64,000 nucleotides of DNA from Microbotryum violaceum (GCA_001244265.2 CDLV01000008.1:1612001-1676000); one strand, 5' to 3'; positions 34,642 through 54,840 are shown, counted from the stretch's first letter. Notes: a model not told the origin generated them from the letters alone. Numbers and translations are program-made.

Positions 34642-37219
34642 CTACTACCTCTATATATATATAAAAAGGTGAGTTAAGGAATGTACCTAAAATCGCTGTT
34701 TTTAACTAGGTTGCGGCCTGGAGGGCCGCCTGTGGTGGATGTACCAGCATACTGTTGTGTCTGCCGCACCTGCCTGTGGTGTCTGGGTTCCGATCAAAAG
34801 TCATGTACAAGCCCTGTGGTGACTTTTGTATTTTCCGCGCCGTTCCAACGAAGCTACAGCGCTCCCAGTATTTTCCTTCTTTTTTTCGCTGACATAAAAC
34901 AAGGCTTCGACTCATATGGTATTTAATGAACCGCAAGCGCGTGGCTTTGCATGATATCGCTTCTACAGCAGAGCTCTGCCTGACGCGCGAGGCGAGGGCT
35001 GGCGTTTGTCACGTGATGCGGTGCGTCGGCGGTGTCAGTGTCATTCCGGCAGTCGACCAGCGGCATTAGGGGCTGAACAACGAATCAAACCACGTAAATA
35101 ATCCTGCGCCACTCCCTCGAACCTTTTCTTTCTCCCTCTCACTCTCATCCAATTTTAGTGACACTCATTCAAGAACAAACCTTCGCTACTGTGTAATGCC
35201 CCGGTCCCAAGGTCGCCAGGGAGGGCCATCGCAACCTCGCCAAGTCTTGGGCACGAGGGTAGCGCCGTACCATGGGCTGCCATGGGCCTGCTCGAGCGCC
35301 CGCTGCGGGGCGCCCCGCGGCTCGACCCTCCTCTTCGTCCCGCTCCGATCAACAGAATCAGCCCCCCGGCGCGTCATGACAACAATGCAACCGATCTTGG
35401 CATTGCGACACGTATACGAGCCCGCCATGCAGCTGTGCAGAACGGACAGCGTGGTCAGCGCGATGGCCAACTCGACGCTGGGCTCGCCCCACCACCACCT
35501 CCTCCGCAAAGGCGAGTGCGCCGGGCTCGAATCGCGCTCAAACCCCTCAAGCCCCACGTTTTCGCAGGGCAAGGTGCGGCTACCTCCCCCTCCCCAGCCC
35601 AATCTCGAGTATCGGCAGCTTCTTCAAGGCTCAGATAGCGGTCAGTTGCTCCGTCCAACAACATCTCTCTGCAGTATGGCCCACATGCTGAACTGTTCTA
35701 CCCACCCACACAGAAGCTAAAGCATTCCGCGAGAATGCCCGGTCGTACAACAACGCGTTGTCGTTCACTTCGCTCGCTGCCCTCTGGGACCAAACTCAAG
35801 TGGGCACGCTAGGACCCACCGTGTTTCGCGTGTTTGGTCGCCTCTACCATCGACTCGGCGCCCTGATCCCTGCCGTGAATCAATGCCCAGCCTTTGCCCA
35901 GACATGGCTGATCGACCCGGCCGAGGCCACCAACACCCGACTTCAAGGACCCGACAGCGCAGAGACTCGCATACAAAGATCAACGCTGACCAAGCTCGAG
36001 TCCATGTTGCGCACCGGCAATTGCTTTGTGAGGGAGTTCGCATCGGCCAAAGGCCGCGCGGGTTGGGATACAGCCAAAGAGTGGGTCCTGCGCCTCTGTC
36101 TGCCACCAGGCCGAGACCGACGCACCCACAACCTTCCTACGTCAAGCTCGGAAACGGCGATGCTTATCTGCGATTCCGACACCAACACGGGAGATCGTGG
36201 ACCGCAAGACCTTATTCTCCAGGTGCACGGTGATCGATGTCCCGATGGTCGGCCCAAGTACCAAATCGTTAGCTCGCTCCATCCGTCCGCGATGCCTCTC
36301 CGTTACCCACTACTTTTTCCTGCAGGGGAAGATGGCTTCCACCCCAACATTCCTCTTTGCGGGGTTCCACCAAGCCAGGCCTCCAATCGCCAGAAACTGA
36401 GAGCAGATCGACAATGGTTTTCCAATTGCGCGAGGTACTTGCCGGTCTCGGTCTGGATGACGAAGACGAACAGGAGGACGTAGACCGCGACAATGAGGAT
36501 GAAGATGGCGAGGAAGAGGACGAAGAGGATGGTGATGGCGAACGTACGCGTCTTCGGCTCTCTCTCTGATGTTCCATTCTACCGAAGGCGCAAGCACAGA
36601 CTGACATTGAACTTTTGAACACCTAGGACGAAGGTCAAGTAAAGGGGTCGAGGTGGCGAGTCTCGCGTTCACAATTCTTTGCGCACTACTTGCCAAACGC
36701 GACGAGCACTTCTCAATCCCGCATTGCACCCAACGTCCCTTCCTGGAGTTCGTGAATTACGGATGTACTCCCAAGTCAAGACCGATTGACTCAACACATC
36801 CGGTTACATCAAGAGAACCTACGCCTCACCACGACCCAAGGCATCAACGGCTTGACCCCGAACCAAATCGCAACATCACGCAGCGATACCAGGATGCGAT
36901 GGCGTGCGTTGTCAAAATGGAAAGCCTCCGCTGCTCATCACGATGACGTACGACCCCGACTCACCGTAAATCAAGGCTGCACTGGGGCCGATAAAGCATG
37001 CAACCGTCCGGATCTCATTGCACGAGTGTTTGAAGCCAAGTCCGGCAACAAGCGACATGCAGGCTGTTTTGGCAATGAATGTAAGATGAATGGATTTTGT
37101 TTCTTTGCTGTATTTCGTATTGTGGTTTCCTAACCTCTGCGCTGATATCATGTAGACTGTTTGATTATCCTGCTATTTTTTGAATTTCATCCTCCCATAA
37201 TTTAACGGGTTCCCACTGG
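34642..37219 (+). mobile_element. Non-autonomous Helitron copy 1 with degenerate Rep N-terminal region
   Basis: 5' CTACTACCTCTATATATA; fragments QGKVRLP, NNALSFTSL, FRVFGRLYHRLG, LHPSAMPLRYPLLFPAGEDGFH, QRYQDAMA, RPDLIARVF; 3' imperfect hairpin followed by CTGG. Confidence 0.85.
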
Positions 37220-37227
37220 TGCACTGG

Positions 37228-37752
37228 TTACTACCTCTATATATATAAAAAGTGTGAGTTAAGGAATGTACCTAAAATCGCTGTTTTTAACTAGGTGGCT
37301 GCCCGGAGGGCCGCCTGTGGTGGATGTACTATCACACTGTTGTGTCCGCCGTACCTGCCTGTGGTGTTTATGTTCCGATCAGAAGTCATCTACAAGCTCT
37401 GTGGCAAGTTTTGTTTCTTTCGCGCCAGTCGAACGAAGCTACAGCGTTCCCAGTATTTTATGTCACTTTTTAATTGACGTAGAACTGTGCGGACACTTAT
37501 ATTGTATTTAATGGACGGCAAGCGCGTGGCTTTGTATGACATTGCTTTTACAGCAGAGCTCCGCCTGGCGCCTGACGCAGGGCGAGGCTGGCGTATGTCA
37601 CGTGATGCGGCGCGCCAACCGTGTCAGGCTCACAATTCTTTGCGTACTACTTGCACGGAAGCTACGATGGCGTGCATTGTCAAACATGGAAAGCCTCCGG
37701 GCTGTTCATCACGGTGACGCGCGACTCCATTCGCGAATGGCCGGAAATCAAA
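37228..37752 (+). mobile_element. Helitron copy 2, head-to-tail with copy 1, internally deleted and 3' truncated
   Basis: About 390 bp homologous to the copy 1 5' end, then jumps to short pieces matching 36669.., 36897.. and 48931... Confidence 0.8.
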
Positions 37753-40900: not shown

Positions 40901-42767
40901 TCAACGCTTATCGCATTGCTCTCGGTCGCCAACGGATTGGAACCATGGCTGCAGTGTCTGGATATCCTTAACACCCATACGGCCTACGTGATTCCTCCAC
41001 TTGGCGATGAGATGGTGTTGAGGCTCCGCCCTCGATATTTGGCACTCGAGCTATGGGATGCGATTCGCGAATACACAGCATTGGCTCGAAAGTTTGATAT
41101 GAAACCGGCAGCGAACGCAATTGAAGCATACACACAATTACGAGAACGGATGATTTCCACTGTGGTTGGGATGTCGAAAGAGCGCGGAAGCCATTTTACA
41201 ACTCCATTTGGGCGAGGGAGTTATAGTAGCCCAGTAGTCAGTCAATCACTTAGCGAACCCCGCCCTCCCAAGACGATTGAAACTGGACGCTAATCATCAC
41301 TTTTTTCGGCAGACCTGGCTCGAGACACTTCACTCGTTCACCGTCGATCATCCGGTTCTGCCAAGCGCTGTCACGTTGAATGATCCCGACCGAACTCTCG
41401 TCGAATTACATCTCCAACGAGCCGGGTATTGCACTGCCTGCAACTGCATTCAGATTGAGGTGTCCCCAAGACGACAGTTTGTGGTTGACTGGCCCCTTCT
41501 CATCTCAAGTCTTTACCTGCCTTCGCATTCGCTGGAAACGTTGTCGGACGTCCTCGCCTCAATCGTTGGGCAACCGTTGAAATTGTACAGAGGCAAAGAA
41601 CTCAGGCCGTCGGCATCACAAGCGCAATTGCCCCGGAGGCTCTTACGTGCAATTCGTTTCAATCACCTCGCTCCCCCGTGTGATTGTGATCAACATCAAC
41701 AATATTTACCCGGAACATTCACTGGCCCCAGCTGAGCTACGCTTCGGTGTTTCGGACCAAATGCCAGAGATGGTCTGGCGCCTTCGGTCAGGAGTGTACA
41801 ACATCAACAATTCACATTTCGTTACGAACGCGACGGTTGGATACGGGCAAGAGGCCGCATGCTATCATTTCGACGCAATCAAAGGCTCTCTCGCTAGGCC
41901 GACAGGGGACAGGAACGCTGGCGGATTAGTTTCCGTTCTTTTCTACGAGCTAGAAGAGGAGTCATTGAACTTCTTGCAAGCCTTCGACCTAATGCTAACG
42001 CGGCAGTGGCACGAAATGTGGAGTCTATACCATGAGCCCTCTGATCCTACCGATATCGGCATTAAAGTGTCAAGTCTACCACCCAAAGGGACTCTTGAAG
42101 AAGGACAAGGTGTCTGGAAGATGGAAGATGCGTCGGCTTTTATTCATGAATGCGAGATAGTGAGTGTCGGGAACGCCAAAAAAGCAGATCAATAGAGCTG
42201 ACGATGCTCTCCTCTTACAATGTTTTCCAGCGGTGCAGTGCTCCTGGAGGAAATGACAGTGGGGAACATTCATGTTGATGGCAAGTTTGACTCACAAAGT
42301 TGTGCCCCAGTGGTCCAGTGAAGTTTTGGCCTTGTCAATCACTAATGTAGTGTACAGTAGGGGCTATGATAGCGGTCAGCAATAGTATGTATAACTAAAA
42401 TTAGTGCAAAAATGGGCATGGCGATACTTTGACAACCACTGGTGTGCGGAAAGAGTCAATTATTCACCAGCAGCAGCCAGTGCTCTTTGCGCGCGAGCGT
42501 ATCCTTACGCATGTCACGTGCGCGCGCGGGCGTATCCTTACACATGTCGACACATGTAAGGATACGAGGGTGCGGTAAGGATACGGGAGGTGCGGTAAGG
42601 ACACAGAAGTTTTGAATCACTACAAGTCTTGCAATACACATGCTATCATGTAGTCCTTGCAGACACCATTCAGAAATAGTTATATGTTGATGTTACAATA
42701 TCAAGATGAACAGATTTGGTTGTGTATTGACCTTAACTCATGTGTAAGGATATATCCTTACATGTAT
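37940..42767 (+). mobile_element. Mutator-like element B (GCM-MULE-USP); right TIR about 42490-42767, left TIR not found
   Basis: Transposase pseudogene, plus a right end whose backbone (cacaagtcttgcaa-like segment, gtattgacct, terminal acatgtat) is homologous to the TIR of element A. Confidence 0.8.
37961..42195 (+). pseudogene. GCM-domain + MULE DDE transposase + USP-like cysteine protease, inactivated
   Basis: GCM-like WAFS..KRRCMGVFVC..C..RP..CPITSCNG..C..WHSGYHLHPPP. MULE D (WPTDAH), D (VVDYSSAQ), CxxH (GCAFH), E (TTNAVESSH). Cys box WSDNSCWIDS and His box SHFV..YHFD. In-frame stops at 38096 and 39458, frameshift near 41.6 kb. Confidence 0.8.
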
Positions 42768-43469
42768 ACAAGCCGCCGCGAGCTCGGCCCACTTCATGCG
42801 AAAACCTTTATCTTCGAGACCTTGAATGCCGACCATTACACACCGTAAGTGGTACACGCCGTCGTGTCTACTAGTGGGCCGGAAAGTTGCATCAGGGGCA
42901 ATTGCGGGGCCACGCCCGCGGCGCCACCGATCGTTGCCACCGGCGACTCTGCAGAGGAGGGCGCGGCGTGGTCGTTGGTTGAGGTCGAAGCAGTCGTCAT
43001 TACCGGTACCAATAGGGTCGAAAAGTTTCGCGAGTGTAGAGGCAATGAGCACTGCCGTTCGAGCGAAACGAATAAGGTGCAGGGGCGAACAGGCATTTCT
43101 CTCGCCTACTCCACTCTAAGCGCATGCGCGCCACCCCCAGCAGGACCCCCGAAAGCCCAGCCAGAGGCGGCCCGCAAATTTGGACATTTTGGGAACCCGA
43201 AAATCGGCTAGGCAGCCCGCAAATTTGGACATCTTTGGCTCAAAATGGGTCGAGCCTCACCTCATTTTTGGACATTTTCGTCCCTCCGGTCGAACTTTGA
43301 AGCGCAGACCAGGGTAGCGGAGGCTGGAGGCGCAGGCTGCGCGCGCGTAACAGTCGCGCTGTTTGCGATTTGAGCGCGTTGGTAAGTGCTGCATTTGCGA
43401 TCAATCATGAAATCCTATTCGAGTCCATTTCAGTTTGACGCCCGACACGCCAACGACCGCGGTCGTGGC

Positions 43470-46423
43470 ACCCAATCACTGGCACTCTATACTCTACACA
43501 CGTGTCTACAAAGGTGTTGAAAATACCTGTGATCATTAATATCGAACCGAGCTTTGCTCTCACCTCCGAGGAATTTGCAATCTTGAGCCCTGTTGCCGAC
43601 CTACGCCTCGTTGACCTACTCGCGTACGACTGACTACCTGCGCCCGACGCTTCTCTCCGACTTGCTCTATCGAAAGATGACCCTCGACATTTTGACGAGC
43701 TGCCACGCCCCTTGAAGCAAGCTATCGGAAAGTTTTCCAATCAAAGCTTTCTATCCTTGGCTTATCTCGATGGCAATCGATCTGTCGCCGTATCGGGGTC
43801 GTCAATGCGCCTTCCTCTCGATGCCTCGGCGTTATGGGCCCATCTCGACAAGGCAGAAAAAATTCGATATATCATCCACAACATTTAAGAATGGATTCCT
43901 CGATTAGCTAACGCCGACACGATTCGGGAGCGTGAGCTTGCCAGTGCTCGTCATCACCTCACTCGCATACGTTGGACAGCTGTCGACCGCGTCTATCTCC
44001 GAGGTCGATCTACACGCCTCCAAGACTTTCTACAGATCCTCAGTGAGTTTGCATCCTCTTCATTCATGAGTCGATCCTGGATACTGATGTGGGTAGAATC
44101 TTGCGTGTGTCTGCAGGCTCCGCCTGGTACTCCGAAACACACATGGATTGGATGCTCGAGAGCGTCCTAGCAGCACCATCGTCTCTTCGATTCGTTGCCT
44201 TGCCCGCCTGGTTCTTATCCGATGCCATCAGGTTGAACCGACGAGGAGCGCGGATCGACCATTTTGGCAATGTCAAATTTGACGAACTGCATCATTTGGG
44301 GCTTGCCTCGCTGTCGGATCTGCGCCGACTCATTGAAAGGGACAACGATATCATCTGCTTCGTTCCCATTTGCCAAAAGGAGCGTTGGTATCTCTTCCGC
44401 ATCAACGCAAAACAGCAAGCCTGGAGTCTGGCCAACTCGATGCCCAGCCTGCCGCCAGCTTCAGATCTCGTTACTGGAGTACTCGATCTCATCGCCTACC
44501 TCGGGATCGCACTCAAACACAAAGGCTTTCAAGTCCTACCGATCGCCGTCCAAGGCGATTCTCACTCGTGCGGTCCTGCATGCATCAGTGTGGTCAAGGA
44601 AGAACTGCTCCGACTTGAGCCCTTTGACCCTCGGCACTCAAAGATGCTGCGTCTTCGCCAATTCAATCGGATTGCTCAGCAAATACTCCAAGAAGCGGAC
44701 GAGGATGATGACGGTGATATTGAAATGTACTCCCTGGACGTCTTGGAGAGTTATCAAGACAACACCTCGGAACTTGATGACAAAGACGTGATTATGTCGC
44801 ATTTCCATTGACTCGACAGCCGTTCAGTTCCCCCCTCTGCCTTCGTTGCGAGCTTCAACTTCGTCGTCTCCGTCACCTCCTACATCGCCATCAGCGTCAC
44901 CGTCAACGCCACCGTCGAATGCGGCAGCTGTAGTTACAGCGCGGAACCTTTGCGCGGACTGGTCAAGTGTTTTTGGTAACACGGCAAATACTGCATTTGA
45001 TGTTGCACTTCCGGGTCGTCCTTTACGAGCACAGCCATCAATCCCACTACCGCCGACTGTAGCTTCTGCACCTGTGGCAAAACTTCGTGGAGATTGGTCA
45101 AGGCTGTTTGAAACACCAACAATGCCGGTTGTAGTCAGGCCTCCCATGTAAGGATCTGAACACCTCCGACTCCTGACATGAGCAACTGCAGGCGCACTTC
45201 TTTCAGAGGTTCAACATCTCTCACTTTTGGTCTGGATCAGCACTGTCAGGTATCAAGTCCGTGCCTTGGGTTTGGGATTCATTGGGATCAGAGACTGGGA
45301 GAGGAGAGGGGGTTGGGTTGGAGGAATTGGTTGCCAAGTGGAGTTTATTGAGCTTGGACCCATGCTTAGTTTGACTGGCTCTCTTGTGCTCGCTTGCCCC
45401 TCTGGTGAGAATCACCTCTCATCACCGCCTAGTTTCTTTCGTATCTCGTCATCGACCCCAGCTTCATTGCTGCTCTTCTCTTGATTGCAAGGTAGTCCTG
45501 ATACAGCGTATACGTTTGGGTCTTCGTTGGGAGCAGCGCCTCGTGCTTTCACCTTCGCGTTCGAGTCACATATTTGACTCCGCATCCTCACCTCGTATCG
45601 AGCTCTTGTGTGCTCTCCTGGGTGTTGTCCTTTGGTCATCGACTTGCTTTACGGCTCAAGTCGATCGTCCTCCCTGCTTGCTGTTGAGTCTTCCCAGCCA
45701 GCTCTGTATCCCGTTTCGTGCGGTCCGTCTCACCCCGTGCAGGTTGCCCTGCCTCGATCTCGACTACAACACTCGACCTCGAGGGAGTGGTCCTGTCATC
45801 CCAAGTATCCCGTCGATGAATCCGAGATGCGAAAAAAAAGAGGTTTGCGAGCCGAAGCCCGCACGCAAAGCGCAATGGACGATGCGGCAAAGGCGCTGGA
45901 GCTTCAAGAGAAGTTGACTCGGTATACCCGCGAGATCGAAGAGGCATGTCCGGGCTCAAAAGTCTCCAGTACCAACCTGCGCGTCGTAATCTGTGGTGCT
46001 TGCCGCAAGCACATCAGGGTCAAAGGGAGTTTCCAACCATCTCGATTCAGGGACCACCTCAAAGGAGCCAGCTGCCGCACCAACCGTTTGAATCCCCGCA
46101 TCACTGGGTTACTACCCAAGGTTTCCGATTTCTCGACACGGCGAAGACTCGTGACGCCATCACGCCTTGCCCAGGTCTTACAACTCCCACTGGTCTGGAT
46201 TACCTAACGCGCACATCCGCTCCAGGAGGTGGTGCCTCAAGACGAAGGGATCTCATCATACAGGTGTATCCAGCCAAAAAAGTCGAGAAAAATATCCTAC
46301 TTGACAAGGACGAGGGGACACAGGTGAATCTTCACGAGAGGGACGTTCTAGAATGGCGTAACGACCATGTCTTGCAATGCGTCAAGAGCAGGACATGTCT
46401 GGGAGCAGCAGGATACAGCCCAA
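43470..46423 (+). pseudogene. N-terminal part of the P-like gene: Ulp1/C48-like domain, S/P-rich linker, Cys/His zinc-binding region
   Basis: ICFVPICQKERWYLFRINAKQQAWSLANSM..QGDSHSCG; ICGACRKH..FRDHLKGASC; PCPGL..YLTRTSAPGGG..WRNDH..C. Several stops and frameshifts. Confidence 0.6.
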
Positions 46424-46647
46424 TTTTTTGTTTTTGTTTTTGATAGACTTCATTAACAGCATAATTATATTAATACCTAGAAATCTTCGGAAAAGCCGGA
46501 GGGAATGCTGTTACGCACACTGGCAGAAGCCAGTGGTGTAGGACTCATTGACCCTGAACCAGGATCAACCATACCCACTAAAACCCCCTTTGGTCCAGTG
46601 GACTACGGGCCAATCCTTGTAAGGAATGCCTCAAGGGTAGCCGGCAA
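46424..46647 (-). mobile_element. Poly(A)-tailed retroposon (LINE/SINE 3' end) remnant
   Basis: The coding frame is abruptly replaced by TTTTTTGTTTTTGTTTTT (an antisense A-rich tail) and about 200 bp of AT-richer non-coding sequence, cut off by the Helitron. Confidence 0.45.
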
Positions 46648-49209
46648 TTTACTACCTCTATATATAAAAAAAGGTCGATCCGCGACCATGTACCTAAAAT
46701 CGCTATTTTCGAGGGTGTTGCGGCCCTCTGGGCCGCCTATAGTGAATGTACCAGTACAGTATTGGGTCTGCCTCACCTGCCTGTGCTATTGGCGTCGCGA
46801 CCAGAAGTCATGTACGACCCTTTTCGCATTTTCTGCACCATAAAAGTCGAGCTACAGCCCGAGGAAAATTTTTGTTGATTTTTGGCGGGGTGCCCAACTA
46901 TTGAGCAGTTTGTGTGAGATTTAATGTATAGCAAGCGCGTGGGTTTGCGTGACACTTCTTCTACAGAGCTCAGAGGTTGTCCCGCTGTCTTTGCGGGCGC
47001 GGCTTACGGATGCGCCGTCAATCACGTGATGTGTATTGTTTACAACGCGACACCGGTTTTAGGGGCTGAACAACAACATGATCTTCCAGGGGCTGTAAAT
47101 AGTCCCGCGATACTCTCTCTAATTCTTTCCTTTCCCTCCCACTCACCGAATTTTTGTGACAACCGCGCCGAGTCTGGCGCGAGGATAGCGTACCGCCGTG
47201 CCATGGGAGACCATGGGCCTGCTCGAGCTTACTCGAGCGCCTGCTGCTGGGCCCGCTGCTCGACTCTCCTCTTTGTCCCGCTCCGATCAACAGAATCAGC
47301 TCCCCGCGCACAATGACAACAACTCAACCGATCTTGGTATTGCGACCCGTATAAGCGCCGCCGTACAGCTTTGTAGAACGGACAGCGTGGTCAGCGCGAT
47401 GGCCCGATGGCCGAACCGACACTGAGCTCGCCCCACCACCACCTCTTCCTGCGCAGAGCAAGTGCACAGGCCTCGAACCCCGCTCAAACCACTCAAGCCC
47501 CACGTTCCCATCCGCGACTACCTCGGCCCCAGATGGCCGTGTGTGCCCACTGCAAGGCTTGATACTGGGAGTGCAAAGGACGAACCGGACACTTGAGCAC
47601 GTGCTGCTCGCAGGGTAAGGTGCAGCTACCTCCTCTCCGGCCCAATCCCGAGTATCGACAGCTACTTGAAGGGTCGGATACCGGTCAGTCTCTCCAGTCC
47701 GTCGTAGGCCCACATGCTGAACAGCTCGACCTACACAGAAGCGGTTGCATTCCGCGAGAATGCCCGGTCGTACAACAAGTTGAACGCGCTGTCTTCACTT
47801 CGCTCGCTGCCCACTTTGACCAGACTCGACTAGGCACTCAAGGACCCCCCAGGTTTCGGATTTTTTGACGCCTTTACCATCAACTGGGCCCACTCTCGGC
47901 GCCCTAGTTCCTGCCATCAATCAGCGCCCAACCTTTGCCAAAACATGGCTCATCTGCCCGGCCGAGGCCACCGACACTCAACTTGGACCCGACGGCGCAG
48001 ACAGTCGCATACAAAGATCTACTTTGACCAAGCTCAATTCTACGTTGCGTACCGGCAATCGCTTGGTGAGGGAACTTGCATCGGCCAAAGCTCGCGCAGG
48101 TTAGGCCAAAGAGTGGGTCCCGTGCCTCTGCCTACCAGCTGGCCGAGACCGACGCACCCACAACCTTCCTACGTCGAGCACGGAAATGGCGATGCTCATA
48201 TGCGATTCCGACACCAACACGGGAGATCGTGGACGTCAAGACCTTATTCTCCAGGTGCACGATGATCGATGTCCCAATGGTCGGCCCAAGTACCAAATCG
48301 TTAGCTCGCTCCATCCGTCTGCGATGCCTCTCCGTTACCCACTACTCTTCCCCGCAGAGGAAGATAGCTTCCACCTCAACATTCCTCTTTGCGCGTTCAA
48401 CCAAATTGGGCCACTCTTTGCCAAAAGACCGCGACGAGGAGGAAGGGGACGCAGAGAATGGTGATGGTGAACGTAAGCCCTTTCGGCTCTTTCTCGGATG
48501 TTCCATTCTGTTAAGGCGCACGCACAGACTGACATTGAACGTTTAAACGCCTAGGACGAAGCTCAAATAAAGGGGATCGAGGTGACGAGTCTCGCGTTCA
48601 CAATTATTTGCGTACTACTTGCACAAACGCGACGAGTACTTCTCAATCCCGCATTGCACCCAACGTGCCTTCCTGGCGTTCGTGATGACGGATACTCCCA
48701 GGTCGAGACCGATCGACTCAACTTACCTCCAGTTGGATCAAGAAAACCTCCGCCTCACCACGGGCCAAGGCATCATCAGCTTGACCCCTGATCAAGCTGG
48801 ATGTTCGGTGATTTTGGGCTCAACGTTCAAGAATAGACCGCGCGAGAACACACAGCGTTACCAAGATGCGATGCCGTGCGTCGTAAAACATGGAAAGCCT
48901 TCGCTGTTCATCACGGTGACGTGCAACCCCGAATGGCCTGAAATCAAGGCTGCACTGGGACCGAACGACCAAGCATGCAACCGACCGGAACTCATTGCAC
49001 GAGCGTTCGAAGCCAAGTTGAACCGACTCTGCGACAACGACGTTTTTGGCAACAAGCAACGGGCAGGCTGTTTGGCCGATGAATGGAGAACTGTTTATTT
49101 GCTGTACTTCGTAGTGTGCTTATTTAACCTCTGTTGAAATCATGTAGACTGTTCAATTGCGCTGCTATTTAAATTTCACCCTCCCGTTAATTTAACGGGT
49201 TCCCACTGG
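46648..49209 (+). mobile_element. Non-autonomous Helitron copy 3, nested in the P-like element
   Basis: 5' TTTACTACCTCTATATA after an A; CCSQGKVQLP, SVILGSTF, QRYQDAM, HGKPSLFITVTCNPEWPEI, RPELIARAF; perfect hairpin CCCGTTAA-T-TTAACGGG at 49183-49199, then CTGG followed by T. Confidence 0.9.
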
Positions 49210-49210
49210 T

Positions 49211-52200
49211 GTCTCTTTACAGCGGTTCTTCGTCATAAAGCGGTGCCCACGGAGACGCAGAGGTTCACCAACAAGTGGTTCTGCGCTGGGGACACGCTCA
49301 TCACGTCGATATATCGACGGTGCAATGGTCTGGAGGAACTCTTTAACTCGCACGACAAGCCAAACCTGTTCCTCCGATTTGCGCAGAAGATGGCGTCCGG
49401 TCAATTGCAAGGCCACGCCATTATAGATGGCATGATCCGTGCTGCGGTTACCAAGAGCGAACGAACAGATGCCGGCAAGACGATGCGTGGATTTGTGCGA
49501 ACCCAAGCTTTGGTCAACTTTGAGCAAGCCATTGCAATGGCATCGCCTGCCGCCCTGCGAGTCCTGCAAATGTCTATCGGCGCGTCATCAAATCGGAAGC
49601 TTCAGTGAGTTGTACAATGAGCTGATGTTGTTGTCTGCTGTGAGCCAGGTTATTGAATTCGTACATCGCCTGCCTCAATTGCTCGTATCACAGACACGTT
49701 CGGAACACGGTACACAAACTACGATTTGGACAGGACCTTGAACACATTGCTGCTGTTGCCAGTGAAATCTCGGCCGGCGCTGCAACATTCAACCTCCATG
49801 TGGACGATACTTGTTTGAGACCCCGGATTCGGACCATCCCAATCTATGACAACTTCACGTCCGAAGAACGGCACACTGTGATTGGGGTCGAAGGAGGTTC
49901 AATCACCTATTCAACTCAAGAAGAGCTACAGGCGATCTTCAACTCCGATGATCTGTAATACCCCAGGCCCTTCACGACTAGGTTACACAGTCCAAAAGAC
50001 TGACAATTTCAATAGATGCATATTGAAACCAGAAGGGTAGTTAAATAGCGTAAGGCAACCGAGCCTTACATGATCCCCCAATTGCGGGCACCAAGGTAAG
50101 TTCTGCGTGATTTAACTGTGCGTCGTGAACTGAAGGCCGACTAATTTCTTCGGCACGTCTTCTAGGTTCGCACGTACATGATAGCTTCAAACGCGGTCGG
50201 CTCGACAGCAAAACCCCTTGCGGCTTTTGTGATCGGCGAGAAGACTGGCACCACTGCCGCCGCGGTGGAGCTCGGTGGCTTGCTTGAGCTCCTCGTGAAT
50301 TTCGGAGTGGCACACTTGCTGGTATCAATTTCCGCCGATGGGGCCGCAACAGAAGGCGTTATTCAACGCAAGACAATGGAGCGCTTGAACGAGATTGAAC
50401 CATTACCGGTATCGTGCACATACATTCTACCTCGTCCACAGAGCAACGACATCTTCTCCGCAATCGTCATCAGATCGGCGCTAATGGGGGGCACACTCGT
50501 CGTCTTCTGCCGCGATGAGAAACACGTCGCCAAGAATTGTGCAAACGCCCTCGACACAGGTGCACGTTGCATCATTGGCGGCATGGGATGCTTCACTTTT
50601 CGGGATCTCCTGAAGTTAGTTGATACGACACTGCCTACGGAACTTCGTACTTTGTATCGACGAGATGTGCTTCGCCGCGATCGACAAGACGACAATGCGA
50701 CACGTCGAGCCTTTGGTTTTGAGACACTTGACACTGTCATACGGCTCGCGCGTGGTGGCAAGATAGATTAAGAAGGGGTCATCATACTCTTCCTTTTTGG
50801 CGAGATGCACGACGCAATTCATAATCGCGATCTACCACATGCTGAACGGGTTCTTATGCTCTTGACCGTTCGTTATGCCCTGGAGGGATGGACGAAATTC
50901 GCGGAGTCCCAACCGCGCAGTTCTCCCAACAACTTCCTCAGTCCTCAGACACTGGATGGCATCTATCGAGTGGTCGAGGGCTACATAGCACTTGTTCGGA
51001 ATTATCGGAACTATTGGCCGCAGGAGGCGTTTATTCCCTGGAGACACGGGACCGAGATGGTCGAACACTTCTTTGGAACATTGCGCAAGATTGTGAAGGA
51101 GTTTGATGCTCTGGACTTCCTCCAAGTACGTCTTCCTCCTTGACAAATCACTTGCAAGACTAAACCTATCTATGGCTTTCCTTTCCTCAGTCATATGCCA
51201 AAGTCGAGGTACTACAGCGTGCGATGCATCAACTTGGCACAGATGCGGCTGGCTCCGCGCAAGGTTATCATCACACCTACCAAAACCTGCACAATCTCAA
51301 TTTGACTGCGCTCGGTACCTATCCGGGCGATGGCGACATCGAGGCCATCGCTGTTAAAGCTGCGCTTGCGGCAAACGACATTCTCAAAGGACTTCGCATA
51401 TGGGACATTATCGAGGAACGGAACATCGAGAAACGCAAGCAAGCTCCTCTCCCTGACATCCTGGTCGATGGTTAAGTCTCAGTCATTTTCATTTATCTCA
51501 TCTTGTGCGAGTGACATGACACTTACAGGTCGTTTAACTTGCTCTCGATAGATGAGGCAACATCGACCGTTCGCCAAGGTGTCCCTCCGAACGTGGACGA
51601 GACTGGTCTGAACCAAGTCCTCGTTCATCTCCGTCTTGTCGGATCGGAGCCATTACCGTGTATTCTGCGACGCGAGGAACGCGACGCGATTTTGAGCGCG
51701 CTTCTTTCGGTGACTGCGCTTGACATTGACCAGGAAGGTCTCATGTACGTAGCTTGGTGTTTGAGAGCAAAAACCGATCACAAACAACCGTATATTGAAC
51801 CCTCAGCGATGCTGTTGATGCTGGCTTCGATCAAGCCGATGCAGAAGAAGAAGATCGACAGCTTCAAACGATCCTGGCCGAAGCATGCCATGAGCATGAG
51901 CAATCCGTGAGTGAACAAAATTTTCGGTTGATCGATGCATTTACTGATACAGACCCATGTTCCCAACCAGTGGGAAGCGCCCCCGTACCCGCGTCATCTT
52001 GGGGGCCCCTCTACTCTGTCCCCACACTCGACTTGGACAGCTTGCTCGCTCGACGACGTGCACACCAATGCCGACACCTCGAGAAGATCAAGTTTAAAGG
52101 TGGCGCGCAGAACGTAGCGTCAGATCAACCCTTTGCCCAAGACCGAACCGAGCACCGCGGCAACGTGCATTCTGCCGCACTTCGACGGATAGTCGAGACG

Positions 52201-53017
52201 ATGGAAATGGACAGGTATCGACAGTTTGTGGGGAACGAGAGGAACCTTCGCTTCAGCAATTCAGGGGCAAATATCCGGGAGAAGACGTTGCACGAGCAAG
52301 CGACAACTGCGATCATCACCGAGGGACGATCTCACGTTAGTCGCTGATTCGTGATGTATCATGACCCAAGCTGGGGCGTGCCTTTTCCTGCGCTGACGTT
52401 TGACTCCGACGCCACAGGACAAAATGAAAGGACGACGAGAGGTCTATGGTTAGATGTCGAACCACGTACTCGTCCGAGCTGTTGATGGTGATGTGTCTGC
52501 ACTCCGTCCTCTCAAGGTGGACACACTGGTCGTGTATGAAATCCCAGAAGAACCTATGGGTTTGCCTTCGGGTGAACAATGCGGGGAACGACTGGCAATC
52601 GGGATAGGTATGCCAAACTACTACTTGTGTGGGAAAACTCCACATGACTGACTGACTAGCACTGCGCATTTTACTTGTCACGTTCCCTGCAGTGAAGAAT
52701 ATTTACAAGAAGTCAAGCACAACTTACGAAAGAGTTGAAAGTCTTGACTCTCTTGCTCTTGTCGCAAATTGCAAGTCGATGGGCGCTGTATCATAAATTC
52801 GCTCGAACCAGACTTGTCAAGCATCAACTACGAGGTCAAGGACTCCACACGATCTAACTGGCGTGATGAACGGGAATTTCACATCACCGTCAATCAAGAA
52901 AAACGGTACAGGCTTTTGCAGAACATCAAAGGAATTCGAGCAGCATCCCTTGCTTGTCTTGCACCAGGAGACCGTTCACAGACGAAGACGAAGGGCGTTA
53001 ACAATGATGAAAAATGA
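49211..53017 (+). pseudogene. P/THAP9-like DDE transposase catalytic region, spliced and inactivated
   Basis: LHVDDTCL (D1), SISADG (D2), RDEKHVAKNCANAL (DxxH), DRQDDNATRRAF, PWRHGTEMVEHFFGTLR (E). Premature TAA at 50769 and a solo-LTR insertion. Confidence 0.75.
49954..50070. mobile_element. 117-bp solo LTR
   Basis: TGTAA...TTACA termini flanked by a 5-bp TSD, TGATC (49949-49953 and 50071-50075). Removal restores the frame NSDDPPIAGTK followed by a GT donor. Confidence 0.88.
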
Positions 53018-53511
53018 AGGTCAGCCTAGCTCATGCTCGTATGCGGTAAGCTTTGTCAGAGCTTGGCCCATCAAGCGCAGCGGTGGATCGCGGCGGGGTG
53101 GGTGTGGAGCGGAGCGCTGGCGGCGCTCTTGGTGTGCGCGCGCGCGACCTTTCCGGCCCGCGCGCGGCGAAAACGCAGTCTGCGCGCAGCGCAGAAAAAA
53201 TTGTGAGCATTGTAGAGCTTATAGATTAGTTTTCAAAAATTATTCAACACTAGGCGGCCCTCATATTTGGGCATTTTCAATCAAAATCTGGAGAAAAAAT
53301 GGACATTTTGCCTCGAAAAAGGCCGTTTTTAGAGGGCCGCCTATGGCTGGGCTTTCGGGGGTCCTCCCCCAGCTCAGAGCTGGCAGGGGAGCCAGGGGGC
53401 GGCCCACCCGTCGCGCCGCGTACTGCCCAACTGCTGTGCATGGCACCGCTCGCTCCCAATCACGCTCCACCCAAACCCTCGTCGAACACGACTTCGACCT
53501 CCCTCAGCGCG

Positions 53512-53586: not shown

Positions 53587-54840
53587 ATGTCGGAACCTTT
53601 GCTCTCGGATGCGCGCCTGGCGAGCGAGTTGGACTTCTTCAAGCACCACGCTGACTCGATTGCGCAGAACAAGATCAAGCTGCCGTCGGGCTACGTGCCA
53701 GCGGTCAAGGACCGACCGAGGAAGCCGACGCTCGTCAATGTAAGCGCCCAGATCCTGACCCAGACGTGTTGTCGTCCTTTCCGAGTCCGGCTGGGACGTG
53801 TCGCTGTCCAGTGCGAGACCGCATTGGCCCCCACCCCGCCCGTGCACACTCCACGACCAGCTTGCACGGCGCGGACACGGAGACCACTGGCTACGAACAC
53901 GCGTACCGTCCCCCCTTTTGTACTCGCCAGCGGTACTTGTCCCAAACACGGATAACGATCATCCGTGTGATCTGACAGCTGACCAGTTCCTCGTCCCCCT
54001 TCCGACATCAACGTCAATCTACAGGTGCCCGTCGTCGAACCCCCCACCGCTTCGATCGAAGACGACTCCACCCCTACGAACGACGAGATCGAGTTGACCA
54101 TCAAGTCGCTCAAACCGGCCCTGTCCTTCTCGCTCAAGGCCTCGCCGACATCGACGATCCAGACGTGCAAGATGCTGCTCGTACAGCAGAACCCGACCGC
54201 GCCCGCTCCCGAGCAACAGCGATGGATCCTCAAGGGCAAGTCGATGGGCGACACTAAGCTCCTGCGCGAGTTTGCGGTCGAGAACGGTTCGGTCGTCAAC
54301 CTCATGATCACCAAAGCTGCTGCACAAGCCCAGGTCGCCGATCCTGAACCGATCGAAGCATCCGTGGCGTCGAGAGGAGCATCAACGACGCTGGCTTCGA
54401 CCTCGACCGCACTCTCCCCACCTTCTACCCCAGCTCATGGAGGGACCGCATCGGGTCGACATTCTCGTGTCCCCTCCCTCACCCTGTCCGAGCCACCAGA
54501 ACCCTACACCCCATCAAGACGGGGTTCCAGCGCAGACTCGCATCGTTCTGTCCCTTCCCTGAGCATCACGACCGACCTCCTCTCCTCCCCCTTGTCGCTC
54601 GATGCGCACCAACCCGCCTCGGCACGTTCAGCCGGATCAGACGAGTTCATCGCCGGTGTTTCGAACCCTGACTTGTGGACCGAGGCGTTTGAATTGTTGA
54701 AACGACACTTTGAGGGGGACGAATCCAAGGCGCAGAGCGTGTGGGAGAGTTGGTTGTCCGGATCAAGGGATTGGATCTCGCCCGGAGACAAAGCGTTGAT
54801 TAGAAGTAAAGCTGGCGTTAGCGCGATGGGTGGGTACTAG
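53587..54840 (+). CDS. GET5: Get5/Mdy2-like ubiquitin-like protein, 2 exons
   Basis: N-terminal SELDFFK..KIKLPSGY segment, UBL domain (IELTIKSLK..QRWILKGKSMGDTKLL..VVNLMI) and C-terminal LWTEAFELLKRHF..A..VWESW dimerisation-type motif. Intron about 53740-54024. Confidence 0.75.

What the first reader, a model, noticed from the sequence alone, without database searches (positions are those of the whole stretch)
43134..53373. Structurally complete 10-kb fungal P/THAP9-like transposon with 32-bp TIRs, an exact 8-bp TSD and a Ulp1-like domain
Seen: TIR AGGACCCCCGAAAGCCCAGCCA(G/T)AGGCGGCCC at both ends and CCCCCAGC duplicated on both flanks. The internal gene has VDDT, SADG, DEKH..K..N.L, DRQD..A.R.F and E..EHFFG..R. 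Known: this motif order, TIRs of about 31 bp and 8-bp TSDs are hallmarks of P elements. Unusual features are termini starting AGG rather than CA, no recognisable THAP finger, and an N-terminal Ulp1-like domain plus a different Cys/His region. Inference: it may define the boundaries of a poorly described basidiomycete P-related family.
Basis: partly seen in the sequence, partly recalled or inferred. Interest (0 to 1): 0.8.

Follow-up and report, generated by a model that had tools for sequence, protein, structure and literature searches.

The report
Broken fungal P-type transposon with protease domain
This is a decayed copy of a jumping gene from the P element superfamily in an anther-smut fungus, and it belongs to a large, barely described mushroom-and-smut branch whose enzyme is fused to a Ulp1-type protease.

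Summary
A 10,224-bp element (43142-53365) has 32-bp terminal inverted repeats (31 of 32 paired) and an exact 8-bp target duplication, CCCCCAGC.

Its single multi-exon gene (about 43425-53014, + strand) encodes four parts in order. These are a Ulp1-like protease domain, a coiled coil with a CxxC..H..C finger, a helix-turn-helix, and a split RNase H core with an insertion domain.

An AlphaFold model of a 51%-identical Microbotryum relative matches the Drosophila P element transposase at Z 25.1. The next fold scores 11.2-12.1 (Tn5, Transib). Hermes (hAT) scores 9.5-9.7.

Six of 10 related complete elements from metagenomes have exact 8-bp duplications, and 9 of 11 elements (window included) start AGGACCCC.

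This copy is dead. It has two frameshifts, a TAA stop, a His-to-Arg change at the protease catalytic histidine, and three nested inserts.
- A 174-bp high-copy repeat lies at 46420-46593.
- A 2,561-bp Helitron-like element lies at 46649-49209.
- A 122-bp repeat lies at 49948-50069.

Contigs from four sequencing runs hold copies without these inserts, plus internally deleted derivatives.

P elements with 8-bp duplications were reported in rust fungi in 2011. I rate this a new variant of a known kind, of moderate interest. Repbase could not be checked.

The parts
43134..43141 (.). Left copy of the 8-bp target site duplication, CCCCCAGC
   Evidence: Read directly; 0 mismatches to the right copy.
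43142..43173 (+). Left terminal inverted repeat, 32 bp, starting AGGACCCC
   Evidence: Contigs from another copy join a different flank exactly at 43142 (joint 42765->43142).
43165..43281 (+). Three direct subterminal repeat units, each containing TTGGACATTTT. They are candidate transposase-binding sites (inferred).
   Evidence: Family D1. In one search, all 5 window matches of the 11-mer lie in the two subterminal regions, with 0.89 expected by chance.
43425..53014 (+). Span of the single, broken, multi-exon transposase gene
   Evidence: tblastn of Microbotryum relatives P0004-P0012.
43523..44802 (+). N-terminal region and Ulp1-like (C48) protease domain. The catalytic His position reads Arg in this copy (KERWYL, against KEHWYL in P0004). 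Gln and Cys are kept (QGDSHSCG).
44800..44806 (+). Frameshift: one extra base in a T run
   Evidence: Frame 1 changes to frame 2 between contiguous residues of P0012.
45142..45798 (+). 657-bp block, present in some copies of the family and absent from others. Not a high-copy repeat.
   Evidence: Joint 45141->45799 in 4 of 4 runs; other contigs run through the block.
45800..46138 (+). Predicted long helix followed by a beta-hairpin-plus-helix CxxC..H..C zinc finger. It sits where animal P transposases carry THAP.
   Evidence: AlphaFold model, pLDDT 83.8. C68, H86 and C92 are at least 90% conserved. No significant fold match.
46130..46140 (+). Frameshift: one base missing
   Evidence: Frame 2 changes to frame 1 against P0012 and P0004.
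46141..46419 (+). Conserved PCPGL / Cys-rich module. It continues at 46594-46648 after the nested repeat.
   Evidence: Consensus; tblastn.
46420..46593 (.). Nested 174-bp very high-copy repeat, of SINE- or MITE-like size
   Evidence: A contig in X5 joins 46419 to 49210 through only 57 nt. Summed depth at 46496 is about 30,000 against about 56 for single-copy flank. No tRNA or Rfam hit.
46649..49209 (+). Nested 2,561-bp Helitron-like non-autonomous element with a truncated Rep ORF. It ends in a hairpin plus CTGG.
   Evidence: Helitron_like_N, E 8.8e-23. Joint 46636->49210 in 4 of 4 runs. A second copy lies at 34643-37219.
49210..49947 (+). Helix-turn-helix region and start of the RNase H core, with the first catalytic Asp (VDDT)
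   Evidence: fold match.
49948..50069 (.). Nested 122-bp high-copy repeat, flanked by ATGATC on both sides
   Evidence: Joint 49947->50070 in 3 of 4 runs; depth 2,934 at 50029 in X1. Sequence. Removing it restores the frame.
50097..50165 (+). Intron (GT..AG), kept in genomic contigs
   Evidence: contigs run through it (records 4, 11, 25).
50166..51125 (+). RNase H core with the second Asp (SADG), the insertion domain (DEKH..K..N, DRQDDNA) and the catalytic Glu (EMVEHFFG). An in-frame TAA lies at 50769-50771.
   Evidence: fold match.
51176..53014 (+). C-terminal region of the protein, conserved in the family, fold unknown, with at least three putative short introns
   Evidence: tblastn of P0002, P0006, P0012; low model confidence there.
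53252..53333 (+). Right subterminal region with two TTGGACATTTT-like sites, in the same + orientation as on the left
   Evidence: (D1, I4).
53334..53365 (-). Right terminal inverted repeat, 32 bp
53366..53373 (.). Right copy of the 8-bp target site duplication, CCCCCAGC

Best explanation
Window 43142-53365 is one inactive copy of a cut-and-paste DNA transposon of the P element superfamily, in a Microbotryum genome.

Shown here:
- The ends are intact: 32-bp inverted repeats and an 8-bp duplication.
- The single gene encodes a Ulp1-like protease, a coiled coil with a C2HC-type finger, a helix-turn-helix, and an RNase H core split by an insertion domain.
- The core folds like the Drosophila P transposase.
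- The gene is broken by two frameshifts, one stop codon and three nested repeats.

Inferred mechanism:
- A transposase made by an intact sister copy binds the subterminal TTGGACATTTT repeats through its N-terminal finger.
- Its helix-turn-helix binds the inner half of the inverted repeats.
- It pairs the two ends and cuts them with the Asp-Asp-Glu site.
- It joins them to target DNA at cuts staggered by 8 bp, which gives the duplication.
- Aborted gap repair gives the internally deleted derivatives seen in sequencing contigs.
- The fused protease probably removes SUMO or a ubiquitin-like modifier from the transposase or from host chromatin factors. This step is a guess.
For: Ends.

Family: the window core is 53% identical to a 1,375-aa M. 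silenes-dioicae protein (E 2.5e-99), and 95% identical over 53% of the query to MVLG_06693. phmmer against 1.84 billion representatives gives 517 hits at E<=1e-3.

Fold: the model of P0003 has pLDDT above 90 across most of residues 40-530, with dips at about 150-170 and 270-310. Best matches are 6p5a/6pe2, at Foldseek E 2.3e-13 and Z 25.1, rmsd 4.1, 399 of 442 residues, chain 134-566. The runners-up are Transib at 12.1, Tn5 at 11.2-11.4, ISCth4 at 11.1-11.3, RAG1 at about 10 and Hermes at 9.5-9.7.

Other sequence evidence:
- Pfam PF12017 (P transposase HTH) is above its cut-off in 1 of 26 relatives and below it in 1 more.
- ESM Atlas gives feature score 0.95 to an arthropod P transposase cluster, and TM 0.71-0.78 to THAP9 and P clusters. 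This is a lead only.
- D138/D139, D261 and E507 are at least 90% conserved.

Target duplications: exact 8-bp duplications in 6 of 10 distinct metagenomic relatives. AGGACCCC termini in 9 of 11 elements.

Mobility: all 4 of 4 runs hold contigs that lack the 2,561-bp insert, and a 44141->51563 internal-deletion form.

Ulp1: family profile against 1EUV, E 2.5e-18. Pfam C48 is above its cut-off in 10 of 26 relatives and 4 of 9.
Against: - No Pfam P-transposase RNase H or GBD model (PF21787/8/9) hit any of 16 window ORFs or 35 relatives.
- A 60-sequence family profile did not find the P transposase among PDB sequences at E<=1. Superfamily placement therefore rests on predicted fold, one HTH hit and element anatomy.
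- The folded protein is a relative, not the window's own broken product.
- Four of 10 metagenomic relatives show no duplication.
- No clean empty site was seen. The only flank-to-flank joint (43135->53395) has 26 letters on one side and also occurs in the run that may be the source.
- GTP binding, DNA binding by the finger and protease activity were not tested.
- No whole genome was held, so copy number and other insertion sites in this genome are unknown.
Confidence: 0.9

Rival explanations
1. It is a hAT superfamily element. hAT elements also make 8-bp duplications and have an RNase H core with an insertion domain.
For: 8-bp duplication. Hermes appears among fold matches at Z 9.5-9.7. The N-terminal CxxC..H..C finger weakly resembles a BED finger (2ct5, E 1.9).
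Against: Hermes scores far below the P transposase (9.5 against 25.1), with rmsd 7.2. No hAT dimerisation or other hAT Pfam domain appears in 16 ORFs and 35 relatives. The BED match is not significant.
Confidence: 0.02
2. It is a Kolobok element, a superfamily related to P that has no solved structure.
For: Kolobok cannot appear in a PDB fold search, so the fold result does not exclude it. This is my own reasoning, not a call.
Against: Recalled: Kolobok makes TTAA duplications. All 7 duplications seen here are 8 bp and none is TTAA. PF12017 hit and P/THAP9 clusters in the Atlas.
Confidence: 0.03
3. It is a Kyakuja-Dileera-Zisupton (KDZ) element. That group is basidiomycete-rich, and I recall its members having 8-bp duplications and Ulp1 domains.
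For: Ulp1 domain, 8-bp duplication and basidiomycete distribution.
Against: No KDZ transposase or CxC Pfam domain at the thresholds used in 16 ORFs and 35 relatives. The core fold is P-like.
Confidence: 0.02
4. This copy is still autonomous, and the interruptions are only introns.
For: Ends and duplication are perfect. Some interruptions are true introns, for example 50097-50165.
Against: Genomic contigs from 3-4 runs lack the three inserts, so they are insertions and not introns. In addition there are two frameshifts and a TAA stop relative to sister copies, and a His-to-Arg change in the protease.
Confidence: 0.02

Closest known systems
Drosophila P element and its transposase (PDB 6P5A/6PE2); animal THAP9
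   Same: Terminal repeats of about 31-32 bp, 8-bp duplication, subterminal repeated sites with asymmetric ends, and internally deleted derivatives. The transposase core has the same order, HTH then split RNase H with an alpha-helical insertion domain, at Z 25.1 over 399 residues. P element features are from passages of PMC7776569.
   Different: - Termini start AGG, not CA.
- No THAP domain. The same review states THAP is restricted to animals. A coiled coil plus C2HC-type finger stands in its place.
- A Ulp1-like protease is fused at the N-terminus.
- Full-length relatives are about 1,500-2,000 aa. I recall the Drosophila transposase at 751 aa.
- Elements are 5.6-7.7 kb instead of 2.9 kb.
- Sequence identity to 6P5A is 14%, and Pfam RNase H/GBD models do not hit.
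Rust-fungus P elements in Repbase (P-1_PSt, P-1_MLP, P-2_MLP, P-N1_MLP, P-N2_MLP; passages of PMC3164196)
   Same: P superfamily, subphylum Pucciniomycotina, 8-bp duplications, and both autonomous and non-autonomous forms.
   Different: Unknown. The sequences and domain content of those entries could not be seen. None of the 27 relatives with an organism name (of 30 looked up) is from Pucciniales.
Ulp1-carrying transposons of other superfamilies (Ginger2 per the search listing of PMC2836005; plant MULE/CACTA and Zisupton, recalled)
   Same: A C48 cysteine protease domain encoded by a DNA transposon.
   Different: Here the protease is fused in the same reading frame to a P-type transposase. I found no paper describing that combination.

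Membership tests
P element superfamily | DDE RNase H-fold core closest to the P transposase | tested here: met
   6p5a_A at Z 25.1, against 11.2-12.1 for the next fold. Foldseek E 2.3e-13 against 3.5e-4. Tested on relative P0003, not the window's own broken product.
P element superfamily | Helical insertion domain between the second Asp and the Glu, at the position of the GTP-binding domain | tested here: met
   The alignment spans chain residues 134-566, which includes the insertion domain. The family has 246 residues between D261 and E507.
P element superfamily | GTP as cofactor | not testable with these tools
   GTP-contact residues are listed in PMC7776569, but no residue-level structural alignment was available. 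An acidic residue 3 positions before the catalytic Glu (E504) parallels D528 by spacing only.
P element superfamily | P-type helix-turn-helix (Pfam PF12017) | tested here: inconclusive
   Above the cut-off in 1 of 26 relatives (P0040, 25.9 against 23 bits) and below it in 1 more. No hit in 9 Microbotryum/Mycena relatives.
P element superfamily | Sequence match to Pfam TNP-like RNase H / GBD models (PF21787, PF21788, PF21789) | tested here: not met
   No hit in 16 window ORFs (E<=0.1), 9 relatives (E<=0.1) or 26 relatives (E<=0.01). The family lies outside these profiles by sequence.
P element superfamily | 8-bp target site duplication | tested here: met
   The window copy, plus 6 of 10 distinct metagenomic relatives, are exact. 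Four of 10 have none.
P element superfamily | Terminal inverted repeats of about 31 bp with subterminal binding sites | tested here: met
   32 bp, 31 of 32 paired. Five TTGGACATTTT-like sites lie only in the subterminal regions. Binding itself was not tested.
P element superfamily | N-terminal THAP zinc finger (typical of animal members) | tested here: not met
   No THAP hit. The modelled finger gives no THAP match. PMC7776569 states THAP is absent from fungi, so I treat it as an animal trait and not as defining for the superfamily.
Ulp1 / peptidase C48 | C48 fold with a His-Asp-Cys triad and an oxyanion Gln | tested here: met
   The family profile hits 1EUV at E 2.5e-18, with the HW, D and QxDxxSCG columns aligned. 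In this copy His is Arg. The Asp position reads Asn here and also in P0004.
hAT superfamily | hAT C-terminal dimerisation domain and a Hermes-like core | tested here: not met
   No hAT Pfam domain. Hermes scores Z 9.5-9.7, far below P.
Kolobok superfamily | TTAA target duplication (recalled) | tested here: not met
   7 of 7 duplications are 8 bp and none is TTAA.
KDZ / Zisupton | KDZ transposase and CxC domains (Pfam) | tested here: not met
   No such hit.

The most novel reading that the evidence does not exclude
Basidiomycota carry a large, essentially unannotated clade of P-superfamily transposons. The 50%-identity representative library holds 517 hits at E<=1e-3. In this clade the animal THAP finger is replaced by a coiled coil plus C2HC finger, a Ulp1-type protease is fused to the transposase, and the termini are a conserved AGGACCCC. 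This would make the P superfamily far commoner in fungi than the 11 copies found by a Pfam-based survey. Some Microbotryum copies may still be active.
Probability: 0.5. Interest if true: 0.55.

Novelty: new variant of a known kind. Interest (0 to 1): 0.45.

Why it matters
P elements are a model for transposition, and they are the only transposases known to need GTP. They are usually treated as animal elements.

Passages of the fungal survey PMC5751038 report 17 fungal Repbase entries and only 11 copies with a detectable P domain. Here one phmmer search finds 517 representatives at 50% identity. All 27 relatives with an organism name (of 30 looked up) are basidiomycetes.

A defined element with ends, duplication length, conserved termini and candidate binding sites has three uses.
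- This family could be annotated in fungal genomes. Its proteins are now labelled 'hypothetical' or 'ubiquitin-like protease domain-containing'.
- It offers a natural test of whether the GTP-dependent mechanism predates animals.
- It is a further case of a protease fused to a transposase.

For Microbotryum, whose non-recombining mating-type chromosomes accumulate transposons, it adds a DNA transposon family with signs of recent movement.

Tried and rejected
- No whole genome was held, so other copies in this genome could not be collected.
- phmmer of the two window core ORFs against PDB sequences gave nothing, or only chance antibody hits.
- The family profile against PDB sequences found only Ulp1/SENP proteases and no transposase at E<=1.
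- Word-based protein searches returned only Microbotryum and one Mycena protein.
- The first structure job was too large. A smaller alignment was used instead.
- Two alignments were too diverse for the metagenome scan. A five-sequence Agaricales alignment worked.
- The modelled zinc-finger region gave no significant fold match. The best was E 0.38 to spliceosomal fingers, and BED scored E 1.9. Its class stays open.
- No tRNA or Rfam family was found in the element.
- No clean empty site was found. The joint 43135->53395 skips 10,259 bp, has 26 letters on the shorter side, and was seen in X1, X6 and X11. It does not restore a single CCCCCAGC. The left flank is itself repetitive, so this may be a paralogous copy of the flank.
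- Contig depths hint at more end copies than interior copies, but the tool warns that depth is not copy number.
- Literature searches for a described P-plus-Ulp1 fungal family found none.
- The THAP9 preprint 10.64898/2026.09.03.748810 does not mention fungi (term search only).


Full report
**Observation**

The left end reads CCCCCAGC|AGGACCCCCGAAAGCCCAGCCAGAGGCGGCCC. The right end is its reverse complement, followed by CCCCCAGC. The repeat finder gives arms 43142-43178 and 53329-53365, 37 nt at 92%. The first 22 nt occur only at these two places in the window, with 0 expected by chance. A direct comparison shows 31 of 32 positions paired and 0 mismatches between the 8-bp flanks.

**Organism and family**

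No genome is held for this window.

The core ORF was read through its one in-frame TAA as X. It finds Microbotryum proteins:
- a 1,375-aa M. silenes-dioicae protein, 53% identity, E 2.5e-99;
- MVLG_06469 of M. lychnidis-dioicae, 51% identity;
- MVLG_06693, 95% identity over 53% of the query;
- a Mycena protein, 27% identity.

phmmer of MVLG_06469 (P0003) against 1.84 billion representatives gives 517 hits at E<=1e-3, 341 at <=1e-10 and 52 at <=1e-30. Many are 1,500-2,000 aa long.

Of 30 relatives looked up, 27 carry an organism name, and all are Basidiomycota. They include Microbotryum, Phenoliferia, Naganishia and many Agaricomycetes. None is from rust fungi. Sources label them 'hypothetical', 'ubiquitin-like protease family profile domain-containing' or, once, 'THAP9-like helix-turn-helix domain-containing'.

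**Superfamily**

Pfam does not recognise the core. There was no transposase hit in 16 window ORFs or 9 close relatives. Among 26 long relatives, only the P transposase HTH model PF12017 hit. It was above its cut-off once (P0040, 25.9 against 23 bits) and below it once. A 60-sequence family profile found no transposase among PDB sequences at E<=1.

I therefore folded P0003 with a 99-sequence alignment. Mean pLDDT is 77, and above 90 across most of residues 40-530, with dips at about 150-170 and 270-310. P0003 is 51% identical to the window's core.

- Foldseek ranks the Drosophila P element transposase first, at E 2.3e-13 and TM 0.68 by target. RAG1, Hermes and ISCth4 follow at about 4e-4.
- VIA-align gives Z 25.1, rmsd 4.1, with 399 of 442 residues aligned (model 37-539 against chain 134-566). 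Runners-up are Transib at 12.1, Tn5 at 11.4 and Hermes at 9.7.
- An exhaustive run over 48,161 representative chains gives the same first hit. Tn5 is next at 11.2.
- ESM Atlas look-alikes agree. The feature score is 0.95 to an arthropod P transposase cluster, and TM is 0.71-0.78 to THAP9 and P clusters. This is a lead only.

The conserved D138/D139, D261 and E507 fit D230, D303 and E531 of the P transposase by the offsets of the aligned ranges. The P residues are from passages of PMC7776569. This was not checked residue by residue.

**Element anatomy across the family**

A metagenome scan with five Agaricales relatives returned 63 loci. Ten distinct loci hold a complete element with both flanks (L008 and L009 counted once).
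- Six have an exact 8-bp duplication: L007, L016, L034, L041, L043, L044.
- Four have none: L003, L008/L009, L035, L037, with 5-7 mismatches.
- With the window copy included, 11 of 11 termini start AGG and 9 of 11 start AGGACCCC.
- These relatives are 5.6-7.7 kb long.

The AGG terminus and the 8-bp duplication are therefore family traits.

In the window, TTGGACATTTT (up to one mismatch) occurs five times, with 0.89 expected by chance. All five sites are subterminal and all are on the + strand, three on the left and two on the right. I take these as candidate transposase-binding sites. That is an inference.

**Other domains**

The family profile hits yeast Ulp1 at E 2.5e-18, followed by many SENPs. 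The His, Asp and Gln..Cys columns align. Pfam C48 is above its cut-off in 10 of 26 and 4 of 9 relatives.

No THAP, BED or KDZ domain was reported in those scans. The stretch 45800-46138, folded with 38 relatives, has pLDDT 83.8. It gives a long helix, then a beta-hairpin and a helix carrying the conserved CxxC..H..C. It has no significant fold match.

**State of this copy**

Compared with sister-copy proteins, this copy has:
- one extra base near 44803;
- one missing base near 46133;
- a TAA at 50769-50771;
- Arg in place of the protease catalytic His.

I laid contigs of four runs from four studies on the element. One run may be the window's own source.
- All four runs hold a form that joins 46636 to 49210 through TAGCCGGCAAT. 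So 46649-49209 is an insertion.
- One contig also lacks 46420-46593, a repeat with very high summed depth.
- Three runs hold a form without 49948-50069. That segment is flanked by ATGATC on both sides.
- 50097-50165 stays in the genomic contigs and has GT..AG ends, so it is an intron.

The 2,561-bp insert carries Helitron_like_N at E 8.8e-23. It ends in a hairpin plus CTGG. A second copy lies at 34643-37219, 76-82% identical.

Without the three inserts the element would be about 7,367 bp.

**Signs of mobility**

All four runs hold three further joints:
- 44141->51563, skipping 7,421 bp with six filler letters. This is the pattern of internally deleted non-autonomous derivatives known from P elements (passages of PMC7776569).
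- 43190->53300, which leaves a mini-element of about 115 bp.
- 45141->45799, skipping 657 bp.

Contigs that meet a different flank exactly at 43142 support the boundary.

No clean empty site was seen. That point is listed under what was tried.

**Comparison with what is known**

Passages of PMC3164196 report P-superfamily elements in rust fungi, with 8-bp duplications, deposited in Repbase in 2011. Passages of PMC5751038 count 17 fungal Repbase P entries ('only Pucciniales & Allomyces') and only 11 copies with a P domain in their survey. Passages of PMC7776569 state that THAP domains do not occur in fungi.

I found no paper describing a P transposase fused to Ulp1. Repbase and Dfam could not be consulted, and I did not try to read the supplements of these papers. 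The rust entries may already show this architecture.

**Verdict**

This is a real, well-bounded but dead copy of a P-superfamily transposon. It belongs to a large basidiomycete clade with a distinctive domain set and conserved termini. It is a new variant of a known kind, of moderate interest.

Noticed in passing
window 34643-37219 and 37228-37751: A second full-length copy (76-82% identical) of the 2.56-kb Helitron-like unit nested in the P-like element. It is followed head-to-tail by the start of a third copy. The ends are shared: TACTACC ... hairpin ... CACTGG.
   Followed up: partly
window 46420-46593: A 174-bp repeat with very high summed contig depth in all four runs (about 30,000 at 46496 in X1, against about 56 for single-copy flank). 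One end is T-rich. No tRNA or Rfam match. It may be a SINE or MITE.
   Followed up: partly
window 49948-50069: A 122-bp high-copy repeat flanked by ATGATC on both sides, with short TGTAA-type inverted ends. It looks like a MITE with a 6-bp duplication.
   Followed up: partly
window 53983-54837 (+): A host ORF with a ubiquitin family domain (PF00240, E 9.1e-11) lies about 600 bp downstream of the element's right end. The insertion may sit in its upstream region.
   Followed up: no
window 42485-42608 and 42634-43141: The left flank is itself repetitive (summed depth 1,100-2,700) and contains short palindromic and tandem repeats (D2, D7, I2, I11). The element may have landed inside another repeat.
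   Followed up: no
P0012 (M. silenes-dioicae, 1,763 aa): This gene model fuses Helitron protein parts on both sides of a full copy of this transposase. That suggests a copy of the P-like element inside or beside a Helitron in that genome, the reverse nesting of the one seen here.
   Followed up: no
L055 and L058 (metagenome loci): Both contigs are near-perfect long palindromes around the transposase match. They are probably assembly foldbacks and were ignored for the duplication count.
   Followed up: no
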